A stretch of 64,000 nt of DNA, from contig JAHWHG010000002.1 in assembly GCA_019323515.1 (NCBI GenBank), positions 18,316 through 82,315 of the forward strand, read 5' to 3'. The notes beneath the pieces are model-generated. The model did no database searches. It saw only the letters and a program-made list of their open reading frames with translations, and had not been told where the DNA came from. This DNA comes from Candidatus Woesearchaeota archaeon (lineage in GTDB: Archaea; Nanobdellota; Nanobdellia; Woesearchaeales; JAHWHD01). Every line of letters begins with the position of its first letter. Position 1 is the first letter of the stretch. The translations under genes and the position numbers were made by a program. Shown here piece after piece: positions 23,800 to 59,691 of this stretch.

Positions 23800-24522
23800 C
23801 TATTGTTCAATATTATGCCAGCTGTTCTCTGCGCTTCTCCCTTTTAGCATATGCCTGCACTTTATAGATGTGTCACAGAATATCTTTTGTTTCAGCTCTT
23901 TCATGTCCAGAGAGAACCAGATATCGTCAAATGCCTTGTTCTCTGGGTTAAAGCGGAACTCAAACCTGTCAAGAAGATCCCTATGAATAAGCACGCACCC
24001 AAGACCGCATGCTCCAACCTCTATAACGCGTTCTTCCTCAACCTCATCTGCATGCATCAATCTTATGTCTCCTGTCTCAGGATGCATCTCAAAAAGTACA
24101 GGATGGAGTGTGTTCTTCATATAGCCATGGGCAGGTTTTAGTATATAATATACTCCAGATATTACCTTTTTATCATGCTTAAGAAGTCTTTGTATCGTGT
24201 CAGGGACAGGTATGACATCCTGTTCAAGCGAGAAGAAGTAATCGTAATTGCCTGATATGGCTTTCTCTTTTATTTTGTTCCTTGCCTTTACAATCCTGTC
24301 ACGTGCCTTTGGAGTGAAATCAATCTTCTCTATTATCACTTTTTTTGGAAAATCCTTAAACTTTTCCTTTAACAGGTTGAAGTAGCTGTCATCCTCAGAA
24401 TTGTCAACTAATATTATATCAAAGTTAGAGTAATCCAGTTGCTTAAGACCCTCAATATACTCATCAATACAATACAGTTTGTGCCTGGATGTTGGACATC
24501 CGACAAGAACTTTTGGTTGCAT
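23800..24522 (-). CDS. Glycosyltransferase-like protein (paralog B)
   Basis: ORF track 240 aa. VLVGCPTSRHKLYCIDEYIEGLKQLDYSNFDIILVDNSE...FFSLEQDVIPVPD is collinear with 19384..20088. Confidence 0.55.
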   Translation of the reverse strand: MQPKVLVGCPTSRHKLYCIDEYIEGLKQLDYSNFDIILVDNSEDDSYFNLLKEKFKDFPKKVIIEKIDFTPKARDRIVKARNKIKEKAISGNYDYFFSLEQDVIPVPDTIQRLLKHDKKVISGVYYILKPAHGYMKNTLHPVLFEMHPETGDIRLMHADEVEEERVIEVGACGLGCVLIHRDLLDRFEFRFNPENKAFDDIWFSLDMKELKQKIFCDTSIKCRHMLKGRSAENSWHNIEQ

Positions 24523-29057: not shown

Positions 29058-29224
29058 AGTATCACCTTATCAAGTATTTTGAAAATATGTATATAAATCT
29101 TTCTAGAACAAACTCGAGGGTTTGAATGTTAGATTGATTAAACATTTCATAGTTTGTAATAGGTCTTAGATGTATATAAACTTAATCGCTATTAATTCAA
29201 TAAAAAATAATTTAACAAAAATAA

Positions 29225-31054
29225 TCAGTCCAGAAATAATTCAATCTTATCATGGCGTTTGAGTGCGTTCATGACCACATTGCCAATCTTGCTTCTCTTT
29301 ATCTTTATCACAGCTTTCTTGCTTGACTTTGTTGTCATAAGGAACTCGTCATTGACATAGATGTTTACGTCCTTGTTGCGGTGCTTTGTGTCAATGAAGA
29401 TAGAGACTGACTTGCCAGAGAATGCGAAGTCAAAAGGAAGTGGTTTTTTGTTTGGCTTTACAATGTCGCCACTGTCGCGTTCAAGCGGCTGGACGTCAAT
29501 GTGCATCCCAATGCTTTTCTCAATCTGTTCAATGTTCTTTCCTTGTTTTCCTATGATGCCTGCTATATTCTCATCAGGCGCATAGACAATGCAGTTGTTG
29601 TTTGAGACTACCTTAACCTCAACGTCTGCGTATTTCTCAAGCTTTCTCTTTATGTTCTCTTCAGCTAACCTGAAAGCTCCTGTCTTCTCTGTCTCAGTGA
29701 CAGGCATGACTACAGTCTGCTCACCGTAGGAATAAATCTCGAATGCTGGTTTCGCTGTTTCAAAGTCTGAGACGACAACAACAGGTCTAGCAAGGTCTGC
29801 CTCGGTCATGCCTGAAGGGACCTTGACTGTCATCTCAAGGCTTAGCACCTTTGCAATTGTTCCGTTCTTTATGAATACAACAGTGTCAATTATCTGCGGT
29901 ATGATGCCCATCTCGATCCTGCCGATGAAACGCTGGATTGAGTCAACAGGGTTTGTTCCGTGGACAACTCCTATCATGCCGACACCTGCAAGACGCATGT
30001 CAGCGAACAGCTTGAAGTCTGAGGTGTTACGCATCTCGTCAAAGAATGTGTAATCAGGTCTTGACAAGAGAAGGATATCGTGTATCTCCGCCGGTGTTCC
30101 GCGGGCGATTGCGTACTGGGTTATTGCCTCTGAAACCTGGAGGTCGCGAGGAGCTTCAACTGTCTTGACAATCTTATTTTGAGATGCGTAGAACTCTGCA
30201 AGTGCAGAAGCGAACGTGCTCTTGCCCATTCCAGGAGAGCCTGCGATAAGAATGCCCTCTGCCTGTTCCTTTATCCTTGTAAGAAGTTTTTCGCTAAGCT
30301 TATAGTCATCTAGGGTTAAAGTTTTGACAGGTCTGACTGCTGTGATCTCCCATCCGTCAGCAAGAGGCGGTTTTGCAATCACGATACGATAGTTCCCAAG
30401 CTGGACAATTGTTGAACCTTTTCTTTCAATCTCGACAAACCCCTGAGGGTTTATCCCTGTTTCCTCAACAATCTCATTGGCAATGTCCTTGACTTCGTCC
30501 TGGGTGAGAGCTTTCTTTGTTATCTCTTCAAAGTTCCATGCACCTGGCCTGCCTTTTTTTGCAGCTACTTTTTGGTTCTCTTTGATATGGACACTCATAG
30601 TGGCAGGGTCGAAGAATTTCTCAAGCATGATTGTCCTTGCCTTCTTTGGCTCGAATTCAATGAGAAGGACAGAGATGCCTTTTGACTCTGCTACCAGAGC
30701 CTGGACCCTGTCAGCAGTCATCAAGGTAGCTTTCTCTTCGTATGCAAGAGCCCTTATCATAGCGTCGATTGCTCCGGCTTTTGCGTGCGTTATCTCAAAT
30801 TCCTTTGGCCGGGAGCCTGTGTAAGTTATTGAGAACTTGTGCTTTTTAGAGAGTTCTCTCAGTTTCTTTATCTCGTCAAGGCCGATGTAGCCAATCTCTT
30901 TATTGAGGTTGCTCTGGTTCTCAAGTTCAGATAGAACTGCTTCATGTATCAGGATTGATTTTACTTGAATCTCCTTTGCTTCAATTCTTTTTGATACCAG
31001 ACGTTCAATCAGGACTGAAGTGTCTGGAACAAGTTTTGTTATTATCTTTGCCAT
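29225..31054 (-). CDS. PIN domain - P-loop ATPase - KH domain protein (COG1855-type)
   Basis: The track ORF extends to 31252. I prefer ATG 31054 (MAKIITKLVPDTSVLIE = PIN start) because gtatataaac (31076..31085) lies 22 nt upstream, consistent with a leaderless mRNA. It carries Walker A GSPGMGKST and a C-terminal KH block (IAGIIGKQGKNIEQIE). Confidence 0.8.
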   Translation of the reverse strand: MAKIITKLVPDTSVLIERLVSKRIEAKEIQVKSILIHEAVLSELENQSNLNKEIGYIGLDEIKKLRELSKKHKFSITYTGSRPKEFEITHAKAGAIDAMIRALAYEEKATLMTADRVQALVAESKGISVLLIEFEPKKARTIMLEKFFDPATMSVHIKENQKVAAKKGRPGAWNFEEITKKALTQDEVKDIANEIVEETGINPQGFVEIERKGSTIVQLGNYRIVIAKPPLADGWEITAVRPVKTLTLDDYKLSEKLLTRIKEQAEGILIAGSPGMGKSTFASALAEFYASQNKIVKTVEAPRDLQVSEAITQYAIARGTPAEIHDILLLSRPDYTFFDEMRNTSDFKLFADMRLAGVGMIGVVHGTNPVDSIQRFIGRIEMGIIPQIIDTVVFIKNGTIAKVLSLEMTVKVPSGMTEADLARPVVVVSDFETAKPAFEIYSYGEQTVVMPVTETEKTGAFRLAEENIKRKLEKYADVEVKVVSNNNCIVYAPDENIAGIIGKQGKNIEQIEKSIGMHIDVQPLERDSGDIVKPNKKPLPFDFAFSGKSVSIFIDTKHRNKDVNIYVNDEFLMTTKSSKKAVIKIKRSKIGNVVMNALKRHDKIELFLD

Positions 31055-31075
31055 GCAATTATCCATTGTATACTG

Positions 31076-31085
31076 GTTTATATAC
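31076..31085 (-). promoter_or_regulatory. TATA box for the PIN-ATPase gene
   Basis: Gene-strand GTATATAAAC lies 22 nt upstream of ATG 31054. Confidence 0.45.
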
Positions 31086-31119
31086 TTTTTGATGGCCAGG
31101 TAATCTTTCGGTTGCGTTT

Positions 31120-31134
31120 GGTTTTTATCGACGG
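31120..31134 (+). promoter_or_regulatory. GGTTTTATCGWCGG motif copy
   Basis: ggtttttatcgacgg forms an inverted pair with 31226..31239 about 90 bp away, in the divergent intergenic region. Confidence 0.35.
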
Positions 31135-31225
31135 TAAATCCTTTTGAGACTTCTGTTTCGGTATTTTGCGAATTTTTAGATGTTGTTTGGAAGCTGTTAC
31201 TTCTGTTTTGTATGCTTAATTTTTC

Positions 31226-31239
31226 CCGTCGATAAAACC
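31226..31239 (-). promoter_or_regulatory. GGTTTTATCGWCGG motif copy (inverted)
   Basis: Plus-strand ccgtcgataaaacc is the reverse complement of ggttttatcgacgg. Confidence 0.35.
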
Positions 31240-31332
31240 ATAATCTCATCAAAAATAGAAAAGTATTTAAATAAAAAGCTCTAAAATAGTATATAAGCTA
31301 TTAAAATAAATTGAAAATGAGGTGAACTTATA

Positions 31333-31431
31333 ATGGCTGCAAAAAAGAAAAAAGCTGCTAAGAAAAAAGTAGCAAAGAAAAAAACAACAAAAAAGAAAGC
31401 TACAAAGAAAAAAGCTAAAAAGAAAAGATAA
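31333..31431 (+). CDS. Lysine-rich 32-aa mini-protein
   Basis: My translation is MAAKKKKAAKKKVAKKKTTKKKATKKKAKKKR. GAGGTGA (31319..31325) lies 7 nt upstream of the ATG, and a T-run follows the stop. It is below the ORF-track size cutoff. Its tail is near-identical to the C-terminus of the 38395..38571 product. Confidence 0.5.
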   Translation: MAAKKKKAAKKKVAKKKTTKKKATKKKAKKKR

Positions 31432-31444
31432 GCTTTCTATGTGA

Positions 31445-31460
31445 TTTTTTTATTTTTTTT
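31445..31460 (+). terminator. Oligo-T terminator
   Basis: tttttttatttttttt begins 14 nt after the stop of the mini-ORF. Confidence 0.45.
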
Positions 31461-31498
31461 ATTTCCTTATTTCTACTCACTTGATTTTAATGTTATCT

Positions 31499-33496
31499 TT
31501 ACGAGAATAAGTTGTCAAAGAACCTTGAGATGTTCCTGAAGAAGTTCTTGAATTTCTGACTGAATGTGAGTTCCTCTAATGTCACTGTGATGTTAGTGTC
31601 TTTTGTGTAGTCGTTGCCTGCCTGGTTATGATATGTTATCACAAGCTTGATGTTGTTTTCGCCCTGGTCAAGGTCTGAGCCCTGCATCATAAAGTTAAAA
31701 CGTTTACTCTCTTCAAGGCTTTCGATTGTCCATTCCTTTTTTGTGTTTTCAAGCTGGATTGTCAATGTTATATCTTCAGGGGTTGAATAACTTTCTTTCT
31801 CGATAAGGGTTTCAATGCTGAACTCGTCCTCGTACTTTACATTATCTGGGTAATTCAGCTCTGAAATCTTTATTGAAGGGATGTCGTAGATTTCCACTTC
31901 AAGGGTGTCAGTTTTTGAAACTGTGTCAGAGTCGATTGAAGCTATGACCTGCTTTATCCCAGGACTGTCGAAAGTAAGCTGGAATACTGAAGAAACGCTT
32001 TCTCCTATGCTAAGGTCGATCTTCTTGCAGTCAGTCTCAACGCAGACATCTACTGATGAAAGTTTTGTGTTGCCAGTGTTTTTTGATGTGCACTCAACAA
32101 CTGCTTTATCCTGGAGCAGGACTGTCTCAGAGAGCATGTTGCAGTCAAACTCAAGGCCTGGTGTGAGTGATTTCTCGTCCTTTGTAAGCTGTTCCTGGAT
32201 CTTTTTCACAAGCAGCTGCGAGTAGGTTGCAGCGTCATCTGTTGACTTGACAGTTACCTCAGAGGTTGCATTGCCAACTGAATGTACAAGGAACGGCAGG
32301 GTATAGATATATCCCTCATCAAGGTTTTCATCTACCTGGATTACCCATGAATATGTTCTTGATTCTTTTGGTCTTAGAAGTATTACCTGCGATTCTGGTC
32401 CGAGTATCTCAACATCTTTCGATGTTACAAGTGTGAGTTCGTCAGCTATGTAATAGTCCTGCAGGTTGGACACACTAACTTCAATCAGGTCGTATGAGCC
32501 AAAACCTACCTTTTCATAGAGCGGGCTTGCCTGAAGTGTTATCTTTGCAGGTTCTTTCCCTGTTGCTTCTATTAGTCTTGAGTTGACTTCAAGCTTGTTT
32601 GTGTCAATGTCAATGTTGTAACCTTTCCATTCATAGTGAGTTGCTGAATCTTCTGAGTCATGAAGTTCTGAAAGGATGATGTGTGTTGGGTCGATGTAAC
32701 CGAATTCTCCGTATGTGGCGTCAAACGGTATCCAGCCATAGTTAGGGAAATACACTTCAGCCCAGCCATGCGCTCCCCATTCTTCTGGGAAAAGCGGTGA
32801 GTTTGTATAAGCAATGCCTGAGATAAAGCGTACAGGTATGCCGAGTGCGCGGTTTATGCTGATGAACAGGTTTGTGATTTCGTCACAGACGCCTTGCCTT
32901 GTTGTAATGACCCAGCTACTTTTCTGTGAGACGTCTGCTGTCAAGGTTGAGAGGTCGTAGTTGATGTTGTTCTTAACCCACTCGGCAATCTTTACCTCTA
33001 CTACAAAGAGGTCGTCTTCACCCTGGGCAAGACTGTTGCCAAGGTCTCTTATCTCTGGGTTGATGTCAATGTGTTCAGTTGGAAGTGTGTAGCTTTGGAT
33101 GTCAGCAGGAAGGTTTGTGACAGGAAAGCGTACCTTGTCTGTGATCTTATGTATTGTGTTCCTTGAAGCTATCTCAGAGTTTATGCTGAACTGAAGATTG
33201 TTCTGTGATGGGTTTTCCCAGGTAAATATAAGATGGTTGTCAGATTCTTCTGGTTCAGGGGTTGTGATGAATCTAATCAGGTCCTGGTTCTCGCGGTCCT
33301 TTGGATAGAATGAGATGTTTGCAAGAACATAGTCCAGCTGTGAGTCATGGGAGCGCTGGATTGTGAGGCTTGATGAGATGTCAATGCCTACTTTTATGTC
33401 TTTAGCTGTGTAGTACCATGTCTCTGCAAGTACTGGTGTTGTTAAGATACTTGATAATAATAGAATAATAATATAGCTGGGAGATTTTGATTTCAT
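31499..33496 (-). CDS. Secreted transglutaminase-like domain protein
   Basis: ORF track 665 aa with a signal peptide (IIILLLSSILTTPVLA). The transglutaminase core has the Cys-His-Asp arrangement (TRQGVCDEITNLF...GAHGWAEVYFPNYGWIPFDATYGE), followed by Ig-like C-terminal repeats. Confidence 0.8.
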   Translation of the reverse strand: MKSKSPSYIIILLLSSILTTPVLAETWYYTAKDIKVGIDISSSLTIQRSHDSQLDYVLANISFYPKDRENQDLIRFITTPEPEESDNHLIFTWENPSQNNLQFSINSEIASRNTIHKITDKVRFPVTNLPADIQSYTLPTEHIDINPEIRDLGNSLAQGEDDLFVVEVKIAEWVKNNINYDLSTLTADVSQKSSWVITTRQGVCDEITNLFISINRALGIPVRFISGIAYTNSPLFPEEWGAHGWAEVYFPNYGWIPFDATYGEFGYIDPTHIILSELHDSEDSATHYEWKGYNIDIDTNKLEVNSRLIEATGKEPAKITLQASPLYEKVGFGSYDLIEVSVSNLQDYYIADELTLVTSKDVEILGPESQVILLRPKESRTYSWVIQVDENLDEGYIYTLPFLVHSVGNATSEVTVKSTDDAATYSQLLVKKIQEQLTKDEKSLTPGLEFDCNMLSETVLLQDKAVVECTSKNTGNTKLSSVDVCVETDCKKIDLSIGESVSSVFQLTFDSPGIKQVIASIDSDTVSKTDTLEVEIYDIPSIKISELNYPDNVKYEDEFSIETLIEKESYSTPEDITLTIQLENTKKEWTIESLEESKRFNFMMQGSDLDQGENNIKLVITYHNQAGNDYTKDTNITVTLEELTFSQKFKNFFRNISRFFDNLFS

Positions 33497-33611
33497 GTTA
33501 ATCCTTTATACTTGTGCAATGTATATAAATGTTTTTAAAAGAATGAGATAAGATTTTCCGATAGATTTATTAATAATAGAATAGCTATTTCGTTTAAAAG
33601 AGGTCTGGCTG

Positions 33612-34295
33612 ATGGATATTGGGTTATTTGCTATAATTGTTGCGATTGTTCTTTTAGTTATTGCGATAGTGCTAAAGCTTATGAAGAAGGCAGTGAAGCT
33701 TGCTTTGTTTGTAGGGATGTTTGTCACAGCACTGCTCCTGATGGGAGGGTATCAGCTTTACACAGATTCAATGAATTTTAAAGATGCAGTTGGCGGTTCT
33801 GAGAACACTTTCTTGTTTGTGGATGATGTTGTTGTTGCAGGTTTTAATTCTAAATTCGAGAGCGGTGAGGATATCGAGGTTATTAGTGCTGCTCAGATAT
33901 CTGAGTTTAACCAGTATTATCAGGATGAGGAGTATGAAGAGATGGTTGATGATGCGTATAAGATTTTTTTTGTGCATAAGAACACCTTCCAAGGTCTTGA
34001 CGAGGTTGAGTTCGGTGGGCAGATGTATGACAGGGATTATCTTATGCGGGTGCTTGATTCAGATGAGCCAAGTTCATTTTTTCCAGGGCTTGATGTTCCT
34101 GATGCAAATGAATTAAAAGCAGTTGTGTTTGCGTCAATGCTTAGCAGGATGATGGAGGATGAAGGTTCTTTCTTTATATTTTCACAGATAAAGGAAGGAA
34201 ACATAGAGGTGTACCCTGAGACTCCGGTTTTTAAGTTTGTCAAGTATGTTCCAGAGAAGTTTTTGAAAAAATTTATTGAGGTTGAAGAAGAATGA
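33612..34295 (+). CDS. Membrane-anchored acidic protein
   Basis: ORF track 227 aa with two N-terminal TM spans and an acidic soluble domain. No motif recognised. Confidence 0.5.
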   Translation: MDIGLFAIIVAIVLLVIAIVLKLMKKAVKLALFVGMFVTALLLMGGYQLYTDSMNFKDAVGGSENTFLFVDDVVVAGFNSKFESGEDIEVISAAQISEFNQYYQDEEYEEMVDDAYKIFFVHKNTFQGLDEVEFGGQMYDRDYLMRVLDSDEPSSFFPGLDVPDANELKAVVFASMLSRMMEDEGSFFIFSQIKEGNIEVYPETPVFKFVKYVPEKFLKKFIEVEEE

Positions 34296-34642
34296 GCTTT
34301 TTAGATAAGTTGAAGTTTTGGAAAAAGGAGCCAGAGCTTGAGTTCGAAAAGGATTTTCCTGACCTGGAGGTTCCTAAAGAGGACCAGCCTATTGAGAGGA
34401 CATTTCCGAGTGCGATGCCTGAGGACAGGATGAGGACTCAAGGATTTTCGTTACAGCAGCCCGGGATGCAGCCTGGTATGGGAGAGCGTGATCTTAGCGG
34501 GGAGAGGATGATAAGCAAGGATTTTGAGATCATATCTGCGAAGCTTGACGCTATAAAGGCACAGCTTGATGCGATGAATGTCAGACTGCACAGCCTTGAA
34601 AGGATTGCTGCTGGTGAGAAGCGTGGCCCAGGATTCTACTGA
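34292..34642 (+). CDS. Hypothetical protein with C-terminal coiled coil
   Basis: ORF track 116 aa. ATGA overlap with the upstream gene. Confidence 0.45.
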   Translation: MSFLDKLKFWKKEPELEFEKDFPDLEVPKEDQPIERTFPSAMPEDRMRTQGFSLQQPGMQPGMGERDLSGERMISKDFEIISAKLDAIKAQLDAMNVRLHSLERIAAGEKRGPGFY

Positions 34643-35027
34643 TTTCTTTATCATCGCGCTGTTTGTGGTTGCGATTGACCAGGTATCAAAGTACTTTGTA
34701 AGGAATCTGAGGTATGATTTTGTAAAGAACACTGGAGCTATATTTGGGGTGCTGAAAGGTGCAACCGGATTCCTGATAGTTGTTTCACTTGTTGTTATCT
34801 TCCTTTTGTTCTGGTACAGGAAGGATATACTGAAGCAGAAGAAGATTCATCAGGTGTGTTATGCTTTAGTGCTTGGCGGTGTTATTGGAAATCTTATTGA
34901 CAGGGTTGTATACGGTTATGTGATCGATTTCATTGATTTTAAGGTATGGCCAGTATTTAATTTAGCTGATGTTGCATTGAGTGTTGGTGTGTTGTTGTTG
35001 GTGTATTTGATAATTAGAGAGAAGTGA
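34623..35027 (+). CDS. lspA: Lipoprotein signal peptidase (signal peptidase II)
   Basis: VKNTGAIFGVL, LVLGGVIGNLIDRVVYGYVIDFIDF and VFNLADVALSVG are the conserved LspA blocks, including both catalytic Asp regions. The track start 34578 overlaps the upstream gene heavily, so the in-frame GTG 34623 is preferred. Confidence 0.75.
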   Translation: MAQDSTDFFIIALFVVAIDQVSKYFVRNLRYDFVKNTGAIFGVLKGATGFLIVVSLVVIFLLFWYRKDILKQKKIHQVCYALVLGGVIGNLIDRVVYGYVIDFIDFKVWPVFNLADVALSVGVLLLVYLIIREK

Positions 35028-35099
35028 TAGGATTCTTTGATTGAAATAGAATAAAAGACCTTGAACCATAAATAATAAAGATAAATAATAAAAAAAATT

Positions 35100-35714
35100 T
35101 CAAACACAATCATGTGGCTTGTAACCTTGCTTCTTTGCCTCAACCTTGTCATTCAACCAGACGCGGTTAGCTTTCTTGATCCTCTTTGCCCAGTCGCACT
35201 TAGGTGAATGATAGGAAGAGCCTGTCTTTGAAGCTATGTACTTGCCAGGTTTGTGCTCGCTCTTGTAGACGATTGAGTGCTCAGGCGTGATCTCTTCAAC
35301 CTTCATATCGTCTTCAGGTTCTTCGTCCTTTGCATAGTTCTCAACATGTTCAAGCTCTGGCTCAAATTCCTCGTCTTCTTCACCAGATGATGCAAGCTTG
35401 AGTATGTTTAGGCTGAAACCAAAGAGCTCAATCAATACCAGCGGAAAGAACACAAGCAACCTAAGGCTGTTGTTAAAGTAAAGGAAGATTGTGTCTCCTA
35501 ACAGTATAAGGAATATGACAAACAATACATTCCAGCCGCCAACATGGTTCATTGCAACAAGCAGTGAGAAGAACGCAAACAGCAGAAGCACGAACAGTAA
35601 AGCGAGTTGCTTGACCTGTGCAAAGCCTGTCATCTTAAGCGCTGCATCGATTAGCAGAACAAAGACCAGGACAAGGACAACATCAATAAATAGTAGTATG
35701 CCATTCTGTTTCAT
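35100..35714 (-). CDS. Membrane protein with C-terminal Ada-like metal-binding motif
   Basis: ORF track 204 aa with 4 N-terminal TM spans and an acidic linker. The C-terminal YHSPKCDWAKRIKKANRVWLNDKVEAKKQGYKPHDC resembles the short Cys-containing module (YH.P.C..A..I...N...F.S..EA...GY.PC..C) attached to many secreted or membrane proteins. Confidence 0.5.
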   Translation of the reverse strand: MKQNGILLFIDVVLVLVFVLLIDAALKMTGFAQVKQLALLFVLLLFAFFSLLVAMNHVGGWNVLFVIFLILLGDTIFLYFNNSLRLLVFFPLVLIELFGFSLNILKLASSGEEDEEFEPELEHVENYAKDEEPEDDMKVEEITPEHSIVYKSEHKPGKYIASKTGSSYHSPKCDWAKRIKKANRVWLNDKVEAKKQGYKPHDCV

Positions 35715-35789
35715 TATTACATCCCCCCAATTAAGTATAAATCCCTTAAACTCCTATTTAAGAATTTCTATCCTAAAGTAGTTACAATT

Positions 35790-36134
35790 CTAGAACTCTT
35801 CAATATCTTCAAGTGCCTTGAGCATGCCCTGGCTCTTCAGGTATGCAACCTGTGCAGGCCTGTACTTATAGACAATGTCGCCTTTTTCGTCACCGCCAAG
35901 TTCCCATGGCTCTACAATAACTATGTTTGTCTCGCGTACCCAGAGCTTTCTCTTAAGCCTTCCAGGGATTCTGCAGACTCTTGTTTTTCCGTCAAGGCAG
36001 CGCACGTACATCCTTGAACCGCCCAAGCGTTTCTCCACAATACCAAGAACCTGATTATCTCGAGGAAGCCTTGTCCTTCTAACCTGCTCCTCAATTTCTT
36101 CCTGTCTTGCCTGTTCTTCTTTCTTTCTACTCAT
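35790..36134 (-). CDS. eif1a: Translation initiation factor aIF1A
   Basis: ORF track 114 aa with the S1-like OB core GIVEKRLGGSRMYVRCLDGKTRVCRIPGRLKRKLWVRETNIVIVEPW. Confidence 0.9.
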   Translation of the reverse strand: MSRKKEEQARQEEIEEQVRRTRLPRDNQVLGIVEKRLGGSRMYVRCLDGKTRVCRIPGRLKRKLWVRETNIVIVEPWELGGDEKGDIVYKYRPAQVAYLKSQGMLKALEDIEEF

Positions 36135-36192
36135 TGATGGTTAAAGAAGTGGGTGTGTTTATAAAGTTTTCCATAAGTTTTTATTCATTGTT

Positions 36193-36861
36193 ATGTGCCA
36201 AGGTTTTATGGAGGGTTATATAATCGCTGACTGTGATGGTACTATCCTAGATAGCATCATGCCTCCAAAGTATTTTGCTCTTGAGACTGCGAGGGCATTT
36301 GGCTTTGATGTTGAATTTAAAGATATTGAGATTGTTGATTTTAAGACTTTCATAAAAGGGCTGGGTATTGAGTTTGATAGGTTTTTCTCTAAGTTTAAGG
36401 AGTTTGACACAAGGCATACTGAGAACGGCTTGAATGAGTTGTGTTCAAAAGGACTTATCAAGCCATGGAAGGATACTGGATACTTTTTTGATGAACTTGA
36501 GAGTCGTTATAAGATAGGGGTGTTAAGTGATAACCTGCATGCGTATAGGCAGTTAGAGTTGTTTGGTCTTGAGAAAAGGATACATGGATACAAGGCCTGG
36601 GACAGTTCAATGCCAAGGGAGTGGATCAAGCCAGGTATAGAGCTTGGGTGTGAGCTTCTCTATGAATTAGGTTTTTGCGATAAGCCTGCAAAAGTGTTGG
36701 TATTAGGTGATGCGCCTAATGATGTTTATCTTGGGAATAATCTTAAAGATGTATTAGATGTTGAGGTGGTTTCGTGTTATATTGACAGGTATAATCTTAA
36801 GATTGATGCTGATCATATCTTCAGAAGTCTGAGGGAGTTTGTTGAATTTCTTAAGGGATAG
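36193..36861 (+). CDS. HAD-superfamily hydrolase
   Basis: ORF track 222 aa with motif I IADCDGTILDS (DxDGT) and the late motif LGDAPNDV. Confidence 0.7.
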   Translation: MCQGFMEGYIIADCDGTILDSIMPPKYFALETARAFGFDVEFKDIEIVDFKTFIKGLGIEFDRFFSKFKEFDTRHTENGLNELCSKGLIKPWKDTGYFFDELESRYKIGVLSDNLHAYRQLELFGLEKRIHGYKAWDSSMPREWIKPGIELGCELLYELGFCDKPAKVLVLGDAPNDVYLGNNLKDVLDVEVVSCYIDRYNLKIDADHIFRSLREFVEFLKG

Positions 36862-36883
36862 ATTTATATATAATAAAGTCTGC

Positions 36884-37396
36884 ATGTTCTGTATGAAAAA
36901 AGGGGTAAAGAAGTTAAAGCTAGCAAAGGATGCAGTGATCGCTCCAAACTGGAAGCGTATTCTTGCTTTTATAATTGATTACTTGATAATTGATTTAGTA
37001 GTGCTTGCACCTTTCAAACTGCACATTGAGAGGCTTGTTCCGACAGGGAGTCCATGGACAGCTACTCCGAGTCCTGTTGTTGCTTCAGAGATGATATTCA
37101 TTGCAGGGATTGTACTGGTGCTGATAATGGCTTATTTTACATTTTTGGAATTTTTCCTTAAACAGACTCCGGGAAAGATGCTGTTTAACCTGTATGTAGT
37201 TTCAGAGGTTAAGAAGGAGCTTGGATTTTGGAGGATTCTTTTGAGTAATTTTACGTTTTTTCCTCTGATTCCGATTGTTGCTGTGTTATGGATAGTTGAT
37301 CCCCTGACAATGTTATTTTCAGCAAAGCATCAGAGGATGCTTGAGAAACTTACCAAGATAATGGTTGTAGAGATGAGAGGGTTTAAGGTCAAATGA
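36884..37396 (+). CDS. RDD-family membrane protein
   Basis: WKRILAFIIDYLIIDLVV is followed by 2-3 further TM spans. The start is uncertain: ATG 36884 or 36893, both downstream of atttatatataat at about 36862..36874. The track start 36839 overlaps the previous gene. Confidence 0.55.
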   Translation: MFCMKKGVKKLKLAKDAVIAPNWKRILAFIIDYLIIDLVVLAPFKLHIERLVPTGSPWTATPSPVVASEMIFIAGIVLVLIMAYFTFLEFFLKQTPGKMLFNLYVVSEVKKELGFWRILLSNFTFFPLIPIVAVLWIVDPLTMLFSAKHQRMLEKLTKIMVVEMRGFKVK

Positions 37397-38319
37397 AGCT
37401 GTTGAAGAATAAATGGGTTGCTGCACTTGTTATTATCCTAATACTTTATGGGGTCAGTTACCTGCTTGCGGTTGCTGTTGGAGGTGACTCCAAAGTCTTC
37501 CTTGGAGGGAATGTTGCGCTTATTAGAGTAGCGGGAATGATAACTGTAGATGGCCAGTCTGGAACTTTTTCAGATTCTGGAACCTCGTCTAAAGAGGTTG
37601 TTGCGTATATTGAAGAAGCGAGTGAGAATCCTATGCTGAAGGCGATTGTGATTGACATAAACTCACCAGGCGGAACCCCTGTAGCTTCAAAGGAGATTGC
37701 TGATGCTTTGAAAGAGTCTACAAAGTTTACAGTATGCTATATAAGAGAGGTAGGTGCTTCAGGCGCTTACTGGGTTGCATCTGCATGTGATAAGATTGTT
37801 GCTAATGATCTCTCAATCACCGGGTCGATCGGTGTGATAGGAAGTTATCTTGAGTTTTCAGGTTTTCTTGATAAGTATCAGGTGAAGTATGAGAGAGTGG
37901 TAAGCGGTGAGTATAAGGATATGGGAAGTCCGTACAAGGAGTTGACTGACAGCGAGAGGATATTGTTGCAGAGCACAGTTGATAAGATGCATGATTATTT
38001 TGTTAAAGAGGTTGCTGCTAACCGCGGCATGCAGGTTGAGGATGTCAAGAAGCTTGCAACTGGAGAGGTGTTCCTTGGCCTTGATGCTAAGGAGAACGGG
38101 TTAGTGGACGAGCTAGGTGATATGAAGGTTGTGGAGAGATTGTTAAGGGAGAAACTTAATATCACTAGCATCGAGTATGTTGAGTTCTATAAAGAGAGGA
38201 GTTTCTGGGACCTTGTAAGTGTTTCAATGAGAGAGCCTAGTTATTATGTAGGCAAGGGGATTGGTGATGAGTTTTTCTCTAAAAGCCAGGACAGTCCTTT
38301 ATTGAGTATACGTACCTGA
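37393..38319 (+). CDS. sppA: Signal peptide peptidase SppA (36K type)
   Basis: ORF track 308 aa with an N-terminal TM and ClpP-fold blocks AIVIDINSPGGTPVAS, GASGAYWVASACDKIVAN and SITGSIGV (catalytic Ser). Confidence 0.85.
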   Translation: MKLLKNKWVAALVIILILYGVSYLLAVAVGGDSKVFLGGNVALIRVAGMITVDGQSGTFSDSGTSSKEVVAYIEEASENPMLKAIVIDINSPGGTPVASKEIADALKESTKFTVCYIREVGASGAYWVASACDKIVANDLSITGSIGVIGSYLEFSGFLDKYQVKYERVVSGEYKDMGSPYKELTDSERILLQSTVDKMHDYFVKEVAANRGMQVEDVKKLATGEVFLGLDAKENGLVDELGDMKVVERLLREKLNITSIEYVEFYKERSFWDLVSVSMREPSYYVGKGIGDEFFSKSQDSPLLSIRT

Positions 38320-38359
38320 ACATCTGGTTGTTTTCTTGTAGTAATCTTACAGAAAGAGT

Positions 38360-38378
38360 AAAAAAAATAAAAAAAAAG
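38360..38378 (-). terminator. Oligo-T (gene-strand) terminator after the lysine-rich protein gene
   Basis: Plus-strand aaaaaaaataaaaaaaaag reads as T-runs on the minus strand, 17 nt after the stop at 38395. Confidence 0.45.
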
Positions 38379-38394
38379 AAATCAAGAAGTGAGC

Positions 38395-38571
38395 TTATCT
38401 CTTCTTCTTTTTAGCTTTTTTCTTTGCCTTTTTCTTTGTAGCTTTCTTTTTAGCTTTCTTCTTTTTTCCACCTCGAGCCATTTTAGCTCTTGAGATGTCG
38501 CCTTTCTTGTCTACAAAGTAAAGGTAACCAGCTTCTTTCTTAACTCCAACTTTAGCAACTTTTTCAGCCAT
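38395..38571 (-). CDS. 58-aa protein: short beta-rich head plus lysine-rich tail (candidate nucleic-acid-binding protein)
   Basis: My translation is MAEKVAKVGVKKEAGYLYFVDKKGDISRAKMARGGKKKKAKKKATKKKAKKKAKKKKR. A strong GGAGGT Shine-Dalgarno lies 7 nt upstream of the ATG (38571), with a TATA-like tttatata further upstream and a T-run terminator. It is below the ORF-track cutoff. Confidence 0.65.
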   Translation of the reverse strand: MAEKVAKVGVKKEAGYLYFVDKKGDISRAKMARGGKKKKAKKKATKKKAKKKAKKKKR

Positions 38572-38655
38572 TTTGGTTAACCTCCCCTAATTTTTACAGA
38601 ATTACTCTGTTTATCGTCTATAATACACGAGCAGGTATATAAATGTTTCGCTTTT

Positions 38656-38679
38656 TTCCCGTCGGTGCGTCGTCGGGAA
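38656..38679. promoter_or_regulatory. Palindromic CGTCGG-family element upstream of the lysine-rich protein gene
   Basis: ttcccgtcggtgcgtcgtcgggaa has TTCCCG/CGGGAA arms and contains two CGTCGG cores. It lies just upstream (gene strand) of the GCGAAACATTTATATAC promoter-like sequence. Confidence 0.35.
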
Positions 38680-38733
38680 ATCCTTAACTTTCAAGCAGTG
38701 ATAAATTAAGGTGTTGTGTCGGTGAAGGTTGTT

Positions 38734-38869
38734 GAGCTCTGTCTTAAGACTCGTTCGGCTGCTCAATCTTTTTGCAATGATGTTGTTGAGCACCTAGGGA
38801 CACGTCGAACGAGGTTCGAGTACAGCCCGTATTGCCTCTCTGGCCCTTTGGCGTCTTAAGACAGAGCTC
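38734..38869 (+). repeat. Structured ~135-nt repeat, copy 1
   Basis: It has perfect 17-bp terminal inverted repeats GAGCTCTGTCTTAAGAC...GTCTTAAGACAGAGCTC. These enclose nested helices CTCGTTCG/CGAACGAG and GCTGCTCAA/TTGAGCA. It is ~90 percent identical by eye to 42074..42207. Confidence 0.85.
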
Positions 38870-38895
38870 TTAAGACTCGTTCGGCTGCTCAATCT
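38868..38895 (+). repeat. 28-nt partial third copy of the repeat 5' arm
   Basis: tcttaagactcgttcggctgctcaatct is identical to 38742..38769 and abuts or overlaps the 3' end of copy 1. Confidence 0.85.
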
Positions 38896-38911
38896 GCTGC
38901 TCTTAGAAATG

Positions 38912-38919
38912 TTTTTATA
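38912..38919 (+). promoter_or_regulatory. TATA box inside the conserved AGAAATGTTTTTAT block
   Basis: tttttata lies 22 nt upstream of ATG 38941. The same block follows repeat copy 2 (42223..42230, upstream of ATG 42253). Confidence 0.5.
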
Positions 38920-38940
38920 GAATCAGGGTTTCTAGGGTTT

Positions 38941-39798
38941 ATGCAAGGAAAGATTGAGGTAGGAGGACAGGCTGTTATTGAGGGAGTGATGATGAGGAGT
39001 CCGAATTATGTAGCGGTCTCTGCCCGGACTGATCGGGGTATAGTAACAAAGAGAGAGCGGCTGAGAAAGAAGAAAGCTTTCTTCAAATGGCCTTTTGTCA
39101 GGGGTGTTGTTGGGTTGTTTGAGATGCTTGTCATAGGGATGAAAGCATTGACATGGTCAGCAAACCAGGCTGGTGATGAGGATGAGCAGATGTCGACAAT
39201 GGATATTGTGCTTGTGTTTGTGTTTTCATTTCTCTTTGTTGTGGTCGGGTTTATTGTGGCTCCGTTCTATGTGACTAAGTTAATAGTAGGAAGTTCAGGT
39301 GTTTTGTTCAATCTTGTAGATGGTCTTATCAGGGTTGGGGTGTTTGTTGTGTATCTTCTTGTGATATCAATGATGAAGGATGTGAAGACTGTGTTCCAGT
39401 ATCACGGGGCTGAGCATAAAGCTGTCAATTGCTATGAGGCAGGTCTGAAGCTGAATGTGAAGAACTGCCAGAAGTATAAAACACTGCACCCGAGGTGCGG
39501 TACATCGTTTATTGTGATTGTCCTGGTGGTGAGCATACTTGTTTTTTCCTTGATAACCGGGTCTGTGGTTGTCAGGTTAATGTCAAGGATTTTGTTGTTG
39601 CCAGTTATTGCTGGTTTAAGTTTTGAGTTCCTTAAGTTTGCTGGAAAGCATCATAAGAATATAATTGTAAGGTTGCTGAACTATCCTGGGATGCTTATAC
39701 AGAAAGTGACCACTAAAGAGCCTGATGATAAGCAGGTTGAGGTTGCGATAAAGTCGCTTAAAGAAGTGTTAAGGCTTGAAAAAGGAAAAAGTATATAA
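38941..39798 (+). CDS. DUF1385-family membrane protein
   Basis: ORF track 285 aa. GGQAVIEGVMMRSP...YHGAEHKAVNCYEAG...LHPRCGTSF are the characteristic DUF1385 blocks. Confidence 0.8.
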   Translation: MQGKIEVGGQAVIEGVMMRSPNYVAVSARTDRGIVTKRERLRKKKAFFKWPFVRGVVGLFEMLVIGMKALTWSANQAGDEDEQMSTMDIVLVFVFSFLFVVVGFIVAPFYVTKLIVGSSGVLFNLVDGLIRVGVFVVYLLVISMMKDVKTVFQYHGAEHKAVNCYEAGLKLNVKNCQKYKTLHPRCGTSFIVIVLVVSILVFSLITGSVVVRLMSRILLLPVIAGLSFEFLKFAGKHHKNIIVRLLNYPGMLIQKVTTKEPDDKQVEVAIKSLKEVLRLEKGKSI

Positions 39799-39838
39799 AT
39801 TTAGGATTATTGAATTGGTGTAAAAGAGGTGAAATCAT

Positions 39839-40030
39839 ATGATGAAAGATCTTGCAAAGAATAATATTGGAAAACTTACAGGAGGGCTGTTAATTCTTTA
39901 TGTTGGAATTGTTTATCTGCTGTGGAACATTGGGACAATTCCGTATCATCTGAATGTCTTATGGCCAGGGTTAGTGATAATCCTAGGACTTGGAATACTT
40001 CTGAAGTACTTCCTTGGGCCAAAGAAATAA
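39839..40030 (+). CDS. Small two-TM membrane protein
   Basis: ORF track 63 aa. A GAGGTGA Shine-Dalgarno lies 6-7 nt upstream. Confidence 0.5.
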   Translation: MMKDLAKNNIGKLTGGLLILYVGIVYLLWNIGTIPYHLNVLWPGLVIILGLGILLKYFLGPKK

Positions 40031-41711: not shown

Positions 41712-42074
41712 ATGGTACTTAATAGTATGAGCTGGAAGCCAAGCGACTATTATGGAAAAAGGTTTGTGACTGATAAAAGGGAGTATATTATTGATTCTGG
41801 GGGTGTTGTTGAAGGGATTGATGCAAAGGTTGTTGAGATAGCTGGTCTTGAGGAAAATGTGTGGGGCCTGCTGAAGCTTGAGAATTATACTGGAGTTGAG
41901 CTTCCACCTGCATATAAGTTATGCGCTGAGAGGATGATTTCTTTGTATGGTAAACAGCCTGCTGTTGGCTTGCAGTTGATAGTAAGGATGGAGCAGGACC
42001 GGGACCTTGGGCCAAAGCAGCGTGTTCTTGTCACAGATATTGTAAGAGAGATTGTTGATTATTCTAAAGAATAG
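41712..42074 (+). CDS. Hypothetical protein
   Basis: ORF track 120 aa. Its stop codon abuts repeat copy 2. Confidence 0.45.
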   Translation: MVLNSMSWKPSDYYGKRFVTDKREYIIDSGGVVEGIDAKVVEIAGLEENVWGLLKLENYTGVELPPAYKLCAERMISLYGKQPAVGLQLIVRMEQDRDLGPKQRVLVTDIVREIVDYSKE

Positions 42075-42207
42075 GCTCACTTTTAAGACTCGTTCGGCTG
42101 CTCAATCTTTTTCTAAACATGTTGTTGAGCACCTAGGGACACGTCGAACGAGGTTCGAATACAGCCCGTATTGCCTCACTGGCCAATTGGCGTCTTAAAA
42201 CCGAGCC
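42074..42207 (+). repeat. Structured ~135-nt repeat, copy 2
   Basis: GGCTCACTTTTAAGAC...GTCTTAAAACCGAGCC are the terminal arms. The internal helices match copy 1, and it is followed by the same AGAAATGTTTTTAT promoter block. Confidence 0.85.
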
Positions 42208-42252
42208 TAAAGAATAGAAATGTTTTTATTCTTACCATTTGTCAAGTTTTGT

Positions 42253-47105: not shown

Positions 47106-48110
47106 CTAGAACAGTGCTCTTCCTAACCTGTAGTCCGGGTTAGGGTTGAGGTAATTAACAAGCCTTTTAATTAATTCAAGAGAGTTAACGTATCTGTCCT
47201 CTAAATCTGCGTAACCTTCGCTGTTGCCAAGCTGTACCTTGTCATAGTCAGCATAATGATGAATCTCTTTAAATATATTTTTGCAGTACTCAAAGAAATA
47301 TCTTGGGTTCTCTCTGATGTGTTTTTTTAGTCTGTTATTTGGTTCAAAATAGTATGTGAATCCTCCATGATTCTTTATGTATTGATTCATATCTGCAGTC
47401 TCTTTGCTTAGTGTGTTTGAATGATGTCCAATGTCCCAGGCAAGCCTCTGTACGAGTTTCTCCATTGCATACAATCCGAATGAGTAAAGGTCTGAATATT
47501 TATGAATCATTTCATCTTTATACTCTGGTGGCGCGTATGCACGGTTCCAGAACAGGCCATTGTCTTCCTCTAAAGGACAGGCAATACCAAAATCAATAAG
47601 GTGGTAATCAAGGATGTTTGCTGGTCTGATGTCTTTATGCTGAAGGCCTTGGTAGGTTAATGATAGAACAGCTTCCTCAAGTTTTTGCATGTTATGGAAC
47701 TCTTTTGCTAATCCTATAAGGCCGTAGTTGTTATAATAATAAGGTTTGATGTAAGGCATTAAGATACCTGGTATGTCGCCAAAAGTTACCATGCCTAAGC
47801 AGTTTACTATGTTTGGGTGTGACATGTCGAATGAATTGAAGATCCTAATCTCGTTAAGGTGCCTTTCAAAATGAGTCATCTTAAGTACATGGTCTATCAT
47901 TCCAGTGCTTTTAATGAATTCAAGGTCTATCAGCTCGTTAGGGATATTTACCTTGCAGACAGCCTGGTAATCTGACCATCTTTGTTCTTCTTTTACATTA
48001 ATGTAGTACAATTGGCTAAGACAGTCAAGGTCTTTGCCCCTAAACCCTTGAAAAATCTTTATCTTTCCGCAGTCACTCACTTGTCCTGGTTCAAGAAGAT
48101 ATGCCATCAT
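47106..48110 (-). CDS. Hanks-type (eukaryotic-like) protein kinase paralog K1
   Basis: ORF track 334 aa with AVCKVNIPN (Lys), NEIRIF (Glu), HKDIRPANI, DFG, APPEY and SDLYSFG. The N-terminus MAYLLEPGQVSDCG is shared with K2. The C-terminus is diverged (YLNPNPDYRLGRALF). Confidence 0.8.
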   Translation of the reverse strand: MMAYLLEPGQVSDCGKIKIFQGFRGKDLDCLSQLYYINVKEEQRWSDYQAVCKVNIPNELIDLEFIKSTGMIDHVLKMTHFERHLNEIRIFNSFDMSHPNIVNCLGMVTFGDIPGILMPYIKPYYYNNYGLIGLAKEFHNMQKLEEAVLSLTYQGLQHKDIRPANILDYHLIDFGIACPLEEDNGLFWNRAYAPPEYKDEMIHKYSDLYSFGLYAMEKLVQRLAWDIGHHSNTLSKETADMNQYIKNHGGFTYYFEPNNRLKKHIRENPRYFFEYCKNIFKEIHHYADYDKVQLGNSEGYADLEDRYVNSLELIKRLVNYLNPNPDYRLGRALF

Positions 48111-50181: not shown

Positions 50182-50200
50182 ATAGAAGTCCAATCAGGGT

Positions 50201-59679: not shown

Positions 59680-59691
59680 TTTTAATCCTAT

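What the first reader, a model, noticed from the sequence alone, without database searches (positions are those of the whole stretch)
38734..38940. Highly structured ~135-nt repeat (two full copies plus a 28-nt partial copy), each fused to the same outward promoter
Seen in sequence: copy 1 (38734..38869) and copy 2 (42074..42207) are in the same orientation, 3.3 kb apart, and about 90 percent identical by eye. Each can fold into a long outer stem: 17 perfect bp in copy 1, and 5+9 bp in copy 2. The outer stem encloses CTCGTTCG/CGAACGAG and GCTGCTCAA/TTGAGCA helices. A mutually exclusive TCGAAC-GAG-GTTCGA hairpin and a 3' GCC-loop-GGC hairpin are also possible. At least one difference between copies is compensatory: CTTAAGAC/GTCTTAAG in copy 1 versus TTTAAGAC/GTCTTAAA in copy 2. 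Copy 1 is followed by an exact 28-nt re-duplication of its own 5' arm (38868..38895). Both copies are followed by the block AGAAATGTTTTTAT, whose TATA lies 22-23 nt upstream of a leaderless-looking ATG (38941 and 42253). Candidate interpretations are a MITE-like element carrying a portable promoter, a small structured ncRNA gene family, or a DNA/RNA regulatory module with alternative pairings. I could not match it to tRNA, SRP RNA, RNase P RNA or C/D-box sRNA features.
Basis: seen in the sequence. Interest (0 to 1): 0.7.

Follow-up and report, generated by a model that had tools for sequence, protein, structure and literature searches.

The report
Small transposon-like repeat in Woesearchaeota
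The two ~135-base repeats are most likely copies of a small non-coding transposable element (a MITE) with inverted-repeat ends in a Woesearchaeota genome, not a structured RNA gene or a carrier of a portable promoter, so the finding is real but fairly ordinary.

Summary
The repeat is real. Copy 1 (38734-38869) and copy 2 (about 42074-42207) match in 119 of 136 aligned columns, and an exact 28-nt partial copy abuts copy 1.

Three new observations favour a miniature inverted-repeat transposable element (MITE):
- Copy 2 is flanked by a perfect 9-11-nt direct repeat, CTAAAGAATAG. This looks like a target-site duplication, placed between the upstream stop codon and the downstream promoter.
- All of the above-chance folding comes from the 16-17-bp terminal inverted repeat. 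The inner 102 nt fold no better than shuffled sequence (z +0.35, -0.20, -0.85).
- Three syntenic Woesearchaeota/Nanoarchaeota relatives lack the element at the copy-1 site but keep the DUF1385 promoter.

The shared AGAAATGTTTTTAT block is therefore host promoter. It matches the genome-wide promoter consensus, lies outside the copy-2 duplication, and sits 35 versus 8 nt from the two copies.

Rfam, ARAGORN, a covariance model and word scans of public collections found no known RNA family and no third copy. The window encodes no transposase, and the rest of the genome could not be searched, so family size and the mobilising enzyme are unknown.

Verdict: a new member of a known kind. Interest is low to moderate.

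The parts
38734..38869 (+). Copy 1 of the element (136 nt), with a perfect 17-bp terminal inverted repeat (38734-38750 and 38853-38869). No flanking duplication is recognisable.
   Evidence: D5; I12
38868..38895 (+). Exact 28-nt partial copy of element positions 9-36, overlapping the last 2 nt of copy 1 (tandem period 126 nt). It is followed by GCTGCTCTTAG, which repeats the GCTGCTC motif.
   Evidence: (D12)
42075..42207 (+). Copy 2 of the element (132-134 nt, depending on where the duplication ends). Its terminal inverted repeat GGCTCACTTTTAAGAC / GTCTTAAAACCGAGCC has 2 mismatches.
   Evidence: I14
42064..42074 (+). Left copy of the direct repeat CTAAAGAATAG (candidate target-site duplication). 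It contains the TAG stop codon of ORF 41712-42074.
42207..42217 (+). Right copy of the direct repeat CTAAAGAATAG. It abuts the promoter of the downstream gene.
38905..38918 (+). Host BRE/TATA promoter block AGAAATGTTTTTAT of the DUF1385 gene (ATG at 38941). It is not part of the element and corresponds to GAAAAGATTTTTATAAT in relatives.
42216..42229 (+). Host BRE/TATA promoter block AGAAATGTTTTTAT of the methyltransferase-like gene (ATG at 42253). It lies outside the flanking duplication.

Best explanation
The repeats are copies of a short (about 133-136 bp), non-coding, non-autonomous DNA transposon (a MITE) in a Candidatus Woesearchaeota genome.

Proposed mechanism:
- The element is defined by 16-17-bp terminal inverted repeats, which share the inner core TTAAGAC/GTCTTAA.
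- A transposase encoded elsewhere would bind the two ends, excise or copy the element, and insert it at a staggered cut. Repair of that cut duplicates 9-11 bp of target.

Shown:
- The inverted repeats.
- A perfect flanking duplication, CTAAAGAATAG, at copy 2. It sits exactly between the stop codon of the upstream gene and the BRE/TATA of the next gene, and both signals are kept intact by the duplication.
- Absence of the element from the orthologous spacer of three relatives at the copy-1 site.
- No internal structure above chance, and no coding potential.

Inferred:
- A DDE-type, IS4/IS5-like transposase acting in trans. This rests only on the length of the duplication and its symmetric CTA...TAG ends.
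- Further copies elsewhere in the genome.
- Copy 1, which has no duplication and carries a 28-nt tandem partial copy, was rearranged after insertion by slippage or a second insertion.

The downstream promoters belong to the host genes. The copies sit just upstream of them, perhaps because in a compact genome that is one of the few places where an insertion is tolerated.
For: - Terminal inverted repeats: 17/17 bp in copy 1, and 18 nt at 89% in copy 2.
- The exact 10-mer TAAAGAATAG occurs 3 times in the window against 0.37 expected. Two of the three abut copy 2 on either side, and the match extends to 11 nt with the preceding C.
- Folding above chance vanishes when the inverted repeat is removed (versus 8, 9, 75).
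- L013, L031 and L033 keep the order small gene(-)/DUF1385(+), with spacers of 170 and 180 nt in L013 and L031 (73 nt as called in L033, where the DUF1385 start appears to be called too far upstream) against 369 nt here. In them AGTGATGAAAAGA runs straight into the TTTTTATAAT promoter. The window has roughly 197 extra nt there, comprising copy 1, the partial copy and about 36 nt.
- No called protein matches the one open frame across the element.
- No Rfam family and no tRNA match.
- Element G+C is 0.49-0.52 against 0.385 for the window, which fits a foreign or mobile origin.
- The two copies differ at 17 of 136 positions while copy 2's duplication is intact, which suggests different source copies.
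- A census paper reports MITEs in archaea, with a Woesearchaeal genome among the densest at 105 per Mb (PMC11602168).
Against: - Only two full copies and one fragment are known. No third copy was found in the window with filters off, in about 5 kb beyond its ends, in relatives, or by exact-word scans of genome, metagenome and viral collections.
- No transposase, integrase or reverse transcriptase Pfam hit in any of the ORFs scanned, which cover nearly all ORFs of 120 aa or more outside 1-12 kb. Genes in 1-12 kb are known only from Logan contig annotation, and it lists none.
- Copy 1 has no recognisable duplication.
- No strain-level empty site was found: every Logan contig read that reaches either site carries element sequence.
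- The inverted repeats are the most divergent part of the two copies (5 of 17 positions), while a 40-nt internal block is identical. This is the reverse of the usual MITE pattern.
- Two or three of the inverted-repeat differences are matched on both arms.
- The relatives used for the empty-site comparison are distant (DUF1385 56-62% identical).
Confidence: 0.62

Rival explanations
1. A lineage-specific structured small RNA gene family. The two loci would be paralogous ncRNA genes whose long closing stem is a processing or stability helix, and the RNA would act in trans or in cis on the neighbouring genes.
For: - Two or three both-side changes keep the outer stem paired.
- All 8 internal differences fall in predicted loops, apart from one that turns a G-U pair into A-U. 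My own binomial estimate gives p of about 0.02.
- G+C is about 0.5 in a 0.385 genome, a classic hint of RNA genes in AT-rich archaea.
- A TATA-like ATAAATTAA lies about 25-30 nt upstream of copy 1.
Against: - The internal 102 nt fold no better than shuffles.
- The minus strand folds as well as the plus strand.
- No Rfam match even at E up to 10, and no tRNA.
- The covariance model finds nothing in three syntenic relatives.
- The covariation is not significant with two sequences (67 of 500 shuffles reach it).
- One of the 'compensatory' pairs is made of bases of the flanking duplication.
- Copy 2 starts directly after a stop codon, with no room for a promoter of its own.
- The perfect flanking duplication is not explained.
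Confidence: 0.12
2. One reading: a mobile or duplicated module that carries its own outward promoter and so drives the downstream genes.
For: An identical 15-nt block, TAGAAATGTTTTTAT, follows both copies at the right distance from leaderless-looking ATGs.
Against: - The block lies outside the duplication that bounds copy 2.
- Its distance from the element is 35 versus 8 nt.
- Three relatives without the element have the homologous promoter (GAAAAGATTTTTATAAT) at the same distance from the DUF1385 ATG.
- Related motifs are enriched in the window (11 sites against 2.9 expected), and many genes with their own upstream spacer have a BRE/TATA of the form AAAC[AC]TTTATAWA at about -33 to -26.
Confidence: 0.04
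3. A recombination site. The two direct copies would be att- or attC-like folded sites that bound a 3.3-kb excisable cassette (38.87-42.07 kb).
For: - The direct orientation of the two copies.
- One Logan contig (L025) joins the left half of copy 1 to the right half of copy 2, skipping the 3.3 kb.
- Synteny with relatives ends between the two copies.
Against: - No integrase or recombinase in the window.
- The ends lack the integron R''/R' cores RYYYAAC/GTTRRRY (read from the sequence).
- DUF1385 and the small membrane-protein gene inside the 'cassette' are in the ancestral syntenic position in three relatives.
- The 3.3-kb segment is present in the same sample as L025 (L028), so L025 is most simply a de Bruijn chimera through the 40-nt exact repeat.
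- Copy 2 has its own flanking duplication.
Confidence: 0.05
4. A chance similarity or an assembly artefact.
For: None beyond the fact that the window comes from a MAG.
Against: Both copies score E of about 1e-40 with the covariance model (trivially, since it was built from them). More to the point, they recur identically in independent Logan assemblies of at least six samples.
Confidence: 0.01

Closest known systems
Prokaryotic MITEs (miniature inverted-repeat transposable elements), as censused in bacteria and archaea including DPANN (PMC11602168)
   Same: Size of about 135 bp, terminal inverted repeats of 16-17 bp, a flanking direct duplication (copy 2), no coding capacity, intergenic position, and taxon-restricted distribution.
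   Different: Only two copies and a fragment are documented. No partner transposase is known. The inverted repeats are more diverged between the copies than the interior. The 9-11-bp duplication is at or just above the 2-10 bp range quoted in that paper.
IS4/IS5-superfamily DDE insertion sequences and their derivatives (for example IS10, IS231 and MIC231, IS903). This comparison is from memory and was not tested.
   Same: Duplications of 9-12 bp and a preference for symmetric target sites. The duplication here, CTAAAGAATAG, has symmetric ends CTA...TAG.
   Different: No transposase gene or full-length IS with these ends was seen. The assignment rests only on duplication length and symmetry.
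Correia (Neisseria) and ERIC (enterobacteria) elements, which are bacterial MITE-like repeats of about 100-150 bp that sit next to genes and can affect their transcription. From established knowledge.
   Same: Similar size, long terminal inverted repeat giving a hairpin if transcribed, location between genes next to promoters, and possible co-transcription with neighbours.
   Different: Those families have tens to hundreds of copies, and some carry functional promoter elements. Here the promoter is demonstrably the host's, and the organism is a DPANN archaeon.
REPINs (paired REP sequences mobilised by RAYT transposases). From established knowledge.
   Same: Hairpin-forming intergenic repeats in which both arms change together.
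   Different: REPINs give no target duplication and consist of a simple hairpin of two REPs. No RAYT/TnpA(Y1) gene is present in the window.

Membership tests
MITE | Small size (about 50-800 bp) and no transposase gene inside | tested here: met
   The element is 133-136 nt. The only open frame has no protein match, and between the copies it shows 1 synonymous change against several non-synonymous ones (read).
MITE | Terminal inverted repeats of at least 10-15 bp | tested here: met
   17/17 bp in copy 1; 18 nt at 89% in copy 2.
MITE | Target-site duplication flanking the element | tested here: inconclusive
   Copy 2 has a perfect 9-11-nt duplication, CTAAAGAATAG. Copy 1 has none and is followed by a partial tandem copy.
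MITE | Multiple dispersed copies in the genome | not testable with these tools
   The 64 kb hold two copies and one fragment. The rest of the MAG is not in any searchable DNA collection: word scans did not even return the window itself.
MITE | Presence/absence polymorphism (empty sites) | tested here: inconclusive
   The copy-1 site is empty in three distant relatives. No empty site was seen among conspecific Logan contigs.
MITE | A related autonomous IS with the same ends that supplies the transposase | not testable with these tools
   No transposase Pfam hit in the window. The inverted-repeat word gave only a chance hit in viral contigs.
Structured ncRNA gene family | Secondary structure more stable than chance, beyond a terminal stem | tested here: not met
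   Internal 102 nt: z +0.35 (copy 1, + strand), -0.20 (copy 1, - strand), -0.85 (copy 2).
Structured ncRNA gene family | Significant covariation in helices | tested here: inconclusive
   Only 2 sequences. There are 3 both-side changes, all in the outer stem, and 67 of 500 shuffles reach the observed value.
Structured ncRNA gene family | Membership of a described family (Rfam) or tRNA-like | tested here: not met
   No Rfam hit at gathering score, and nothing relevant at E up to 10. ARAGORN found nothing with intron and relaxed settings, apart from one sub-threshold minus-strand call in copy 2 only.
Structured ncRNA gene family | Homologues in related genomes | tested here: not met
   The covariance model R1 finds nothing in L013, L031 or L033-L035. 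Only about 35 kb of relatives could be searched.
Integron attC / site-specific att site | R''/R' core sites (RYYYAAC...GTTRRRY) and a nearby tyrosine recombinase | tested here: not met
   The ends read GAGCTCTGTCTTAAGAC/GTCTTAAGACAGAGCTC, without those cores. No integrase family hit in the window.
Promoter-carrying mobile module | The promoter lies inside the mobile unit and is absent from empty sites | tested here: not met
   The promoter lies outside the copy-2 duplication and is present in relatives lacking the element.

The most novel reading that the evidence does not exclude
The element could be a mobile unit whose hairpin architecture is itself under selection. Examples would be a transposon that moves through a folded single-stranded intermediate, or a co-transcribed RNA hairpin that insulates or terminates neighbouring transcription units in a very compact DPANN genome. 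This would explain why both arms of the terminal repeat changed together between the copies, and why the interior is more conserved than the ends. No such system is described for DPANN archaea.
Probability: 0.12. Interest if true: 0.55.

Novelty: new member of a known kind. Interest (0 to 1): 0.27.

Why it matters
If correct, this documents one concrete MITE-type element in a Woesearchaeota (DPANN) genome, with its ends, its target duplication and an insertion placed precisely between a stop codon and the next promoter. It shows how even a very compact genome accommodates mobile DNA. It also gives a sequence tag for finding the partner transposase and for tracking strains.

It has practical value as a caution. 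The exact 40-nt core breaks short-read assemblies at both loci and can create chimeric joins such as contig L025. A strong whole-element folding z-score can come entirely from terminal inverted repeats. The finding does not open a new biological question.

Tried and rejected
- tRNA, split tRNA or permuted tRNA: ARAGORN found nothing with default, intron and relaxed settings. The GGTTCGA(A/G)T motif is not followed by a T-stem.
- Known RNA families: Rfam gave nothing at gathering score over the whole window, or at E up to 10 over 38600-39000.
- More copies by exact words. CCTAGGGACACGTCGAAC gave 0 hits in viral contigs, 0 in genome contigs and 5 unrelated chance hits in metagenomes. GACTCGTTCGGCTGCTCAA gave 2 chance hits in bacteria (the covariance-model check gave E 0.77) and 0 viral hits. 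The inverted-repeat word gave 1 chance hit in phage coding sequence.
- BLASTN against plasmids and phages: no match.
- Finding copies through spurious ORF calls: the 43-aa translation of the open frame has no word-sharing protein among 5.8 billion.
- Covariance model R1: no third copy in the window with filters off, in relatives, or in contigs that extend past the window ends.
- Diversity-generating retroelement template/variable repeat pair: rejected. The differences are not adenine-specific, neither copy lies in a gene, and there is no reverse transcriptase.
- BHB-bounded intron or circular RNA: rejected. Copy 1's stem has no bulges, and copy 2 has a 2x2 internal loop rather than two 3-nt bulges 4 bp apart.
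- H/ACA or C/D sRNA: the AUGAUG in copy 1's loop is not conserved in copy 2, and there is no two-sided pocket with an ACA box 3' of a stem.
- Left flank of copy 1 as a decayed older copy: the local alignment is marginal (GTTGTTGAGC, 4.5% of shuffles reach it).
- Strain-level empty site: not found.
- Hybrid contig L025 as a real deletion: cannot be told from a chimera, because the deleted segment is present in the same sample.
- Not run: the representative-protein search and structure prediction. A 49-aa non-coding translation could not give a significant result.

Full report
**What is there**

The window is archaeal. It encodes aIF-1A, aIF-2 alpha, family-B DNA polymerase, Gins51, Cdc6 and ribosomal proteins S8e and S27e. 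The DUF1385 protein at 38941-39798 is identical to NCBI protein MBW3014860.1 of a 'Candidatus Woesearchaeota archaeon' MAG, on an 82,362-bp contig.

The repeat is as described:
- Copy 1 is at 38734-38869 and copy 2 at about 42073-42208, on the same strand. They are 90% identical over 132 nt and match in 119 of 136 columns.
- An exact 28-nt partial copy at 38868-38895 abuts copy 1 (family D12).
- Independent Logan assemblies from several samples carry the same sequences. Those contigs end inside the shared 30-40-nt core, so this is not a MAG artefact.

**Is it 'highly structured'?**

The whole element folds much better than shuffled sequence:
- As RNA, z = -5.2 for copy 1 and -3.9 for copy 2.
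- With DNA parameters, z = -5.15.
- The minus strand does as well as the plus strand, with z = -5.4 and -3.6.

When the outer stem is removed the signal disappears. The inner 102 nt give z = +0.35 (copy 1, + strand), -0.20 (copy 1, - strand) and -0.85 (copy 2). The only exceptional feature is therefore a 16-17-bp terminal inverted repeat. It is GAGCTCTGTCTTAAGAC, perfect, in copy 1, and (A)GGCTCACTTTTAAGAC/GTCTTAAAACCGAGCC(T) with two mismatches in copy 2.

**The flanks of copy 2**

Copy 2 is bounded by a perfect direct repeat:
- TAAAGAATAG lies at 42065-42074 and 42208-42217. The 10-mer is expected 0.37 times in the window and occurs 3 times, two of them abutting the element.
- With the preceding C the repeat is 11 nt, CTAAAGAATAG.
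- The left copy contains the TAG stop codon of ORF 41712-42074.
- The right copy runs directly into AAATGTTTTTAT, the BRE/TATA of the next gene.

Removing the element and one repeat copy restores a seamless stop-codon-to-promoter junction. This is the signature of a staggered-cut insertion with target-site duplication. The duplicated target has symmetric ends (CTA...TAG). From general knowledge, that is typical of DDE transposases with 9-12-bp duplications. This last point is a lead, not a test.

**The copy-1 site in relatives**

The closest available DUF1385 homologues are only 56-62% identical. Three of their loci keep the local gene order of peptidase S49, small basic-protein gene on the minus strand, then DUF1385: L013 (GCA_019323525.1), L031 (GCA_034722435.1) and L033 (Logan). 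L013 and L031 also show eIF-1A and a HAD-like gene further upstream.

- The spacer between the small gene and DUF1385 is 170 nt in L013 and 180 nt in L031, against 369 nt in the window. In L033 it is 73 nt as called, where the DUF1385 start appears to be called too far upstream.
- The alignment is well conserved from the small gene through '...AACTTTC..AGTGAT'.
- In all three relatives AGTGATGAAAAGA then runs straight into TTTTTATAAT, about 25 nt before the ATG.
- In the window, roughly 197 extra nt lie between AGTGATAAA and AGAAATGTTTTTATAG. They comprise copy 1, the partial copy and about 36 nt of unassignable sequence.
- The covariance model finds no copy anywhere in these relatives.

So the element is an insertion in this lineage, and the DUF1385 promoter pre-dates it.

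**The 'same outward promoter'**

The block AGAAATGTTTTTAT occurs exactly at 38905 and 42216, but four observations argue against it being part of the repeat:
- It is 35 nt from copy 1 and 8 nt from copy 2.
- It lies outside copy 2's duplication.
- It has a counterpart in relatives without the element.
- It fits the promoter consensus of this genome. Related motifs are enriched (11 sites against 2.9 expected). Many genes with their own upstream spacer carry AAAC[AC]TTTATAWA-like boxes at about -33 to -26 from the ATG, which is consistent with leaderless transcripts.

The portable-promoter idea is therefore not supported.

**RNA-gene tests**

- Rfam gave nothing at gathering score over the window, and nothing relevant at E up to 10 around copy 1.
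- ARAGORN found no tRNA with intron-tolerant and relaxed settings, apart from one sub-threshold minus-strand call in copy 2 only.
- With two sequences, covariation is not significant: 3 both-side changes, all in the outer stem, and 67 of 500 shuffles reach that value. One of those pairs is formed by bases of the flanking duplication.
- In favour of some structural constraint, all eight internal differences fall in predicted loops, apart from one G-U to A-U change. My binomial estimate is p of about 0.02, which is weak on its own.
- The element is G+C-rich for this genome (0.49-0.52 against 0.385).

**Search for more copies and for a transposase**

- No third copy was found in the window, even with filters off.
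- None was found in contigs reaching about 3.8 kb and 0.9 kb beyond the window ends.
- Exact-word scans of the genome, metagenome and viral collections returned only chance hits. These scans did not return the window itself, so the source MAG is not in those collections and its other contigs could not be searched.
- BLASTN against plasmids and phages found nothing.
- No scanned ORF in the window hits a transposase, integrase or reverse transcriptase family. The scans cover nearly all ORFs of 120 aa or more outside 1-12 kb.
- No conspecific contig shows an empty site.

**Interpretation**

The combination fits the definition of a MITE: a short non-coding unit, terminal inverted repeats, a perfect 9-11-bp flanking duplication, absence from orthologous sites, no internal structure above chance, and no family match. 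A census paper reports MITEs in 20% of archaeal genomes, with a Woesearchaeal genome among the densest at 105 per Mb (PMC11602168), so the kind is known in this clade.

Several points remain atypical or unresolved:
- Only two copies and a fragment are known.
- No partner transposase is known.
- Copy 1 lacks a duplication and carries a tandem partial copy. The period of 126 nt and the repeated GCTGCTC motif point to slippage or a second, truncated insertion.
- The ends are more diverged between the copies (5 of 17 positions) than the interior, and the changes are matched on both arms.

That last point leaves some room for a reading in which the hairpin itself is selected, either as folded single-stranded DNA during transposition or as an RNA hairpin acting on neighbouring transcripts. 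I put about 0.12 on that reading and about 0.62 on a plain MITE.

**Verdict**

The ncRNA and portable-promoter options are not supported. It is a new member of a known kind, of low to moderate interest.

Noticed in passing
L025 (Logan DRR851373_12245939), element at 213-348; corresponds to window 38.55-38.82 kb joined to 42.15-42.6 kb: One contig joins the left half of copy 1 to the right half of copy 2 through the shared 40-nt core, skipping the 3.3-kb segment with DUF1385, the MBL-fold hydrolase and the kinase-like gene. It is either a real deletion by recombination between the direct copies or a k-mer chimera. The segment is present in the same sample (L028), which favours a chimera.
   Followed up: partly
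window 38572-38705; L013 9831-9965; L031 about 3821-3960; L033 about 1525-1660: The non-coding spacer upstream of the 58-aa lysine-rich protein gene is conserved at the DNA level in genomes whose proteins are only about 56-62% identical. It holds a 5'-UTR hairpin (ACAGA..TCTGT), the promoter GCGAAACATTTATATACC on the minus strand, a T-run, a GC-rich palindrome (CGTCGGAGCTCCGACG in relatives, altered in the window) and AACTTTC..AGTGAT(G)A. It could be a regulatory site between divergent promoters, or a small RNA.
   Followed up: partly
window, about -33 to -26 upstream of many ATG start codons (e.g. 5374-6372, 8642-11119, 31499-33496, 50226-51158, 62609-63154): A consistent BRE/TATA-like box, AAAC[AC]TTTATAWA, sits about 25-33 nt before start codons. 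This implies mostly leaderless mRNAs in this Woesearchaeote. A few genes (e.g. 38395-38571, 39839-40030) instead have GGAGG-like leaders.
   Followed up: partly
window 47106-50193 and 56603-57664 (minus strand): Four paralogous eukaryotic-type protein kinase (Pkinase) genes. Three are in tandem, with 76-85% identical DNA blocks between them (repeat families D1, D2, D7, D17).
   Followed up: no
window 19384-20088 and 23800-24522 (minus strand): Two paralogous family-2 glycosyltransferase genes, about 73% identical at the DNA level and 4.4 kb apart (repeat families D3, D4). They flank an S-layer-like protein gene (20175-22613).
   Followed up: no
window 31339-31433 (+) and 38402-38467 (-): Lysine-codon-rich 15-nt periodic repeats (AAGAAAAAAGC-like). 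One lies in the C-terminal tail of the 58-aa protein, and a similar stretch lies near 31.3 kb in inverted orientation. This suggests a second small, very basic protein gene.
   Followed up: no
window 27750-40030 versus L013 1-11200 and L031: Gene order from seryl-tRNA synthetase to DUF1385 plus a small LiaI/LiaF-like membrane protein is conserved with distant relatives. Synteny ends near 40.1 kb, between the two element copies. The RDD-family gene at 36839-37396 is absent from L013 and L031.
   Followed up: partly
window 59026-60579: A nucleotidyltransferase-domain gene (59026-59517, minus strand) and a Fic/DOC gene (59692-60579) flank AT-rich inverted and direct repeats (59498-59591 and 59540-59670). 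This may be a toxin-antitoxin-like or defence islet.
   Followed up: no
about 870 nt before window position 1 (ends of L019 and L020): Logan contigs from two different samples both stop at the same point, about 870 nt upstream of the window start, inside a gene of more than 597 aa. This hints at another repeat or variable region there. The covariance model finds no copy of the element in these contigs.
   Followed up: partly
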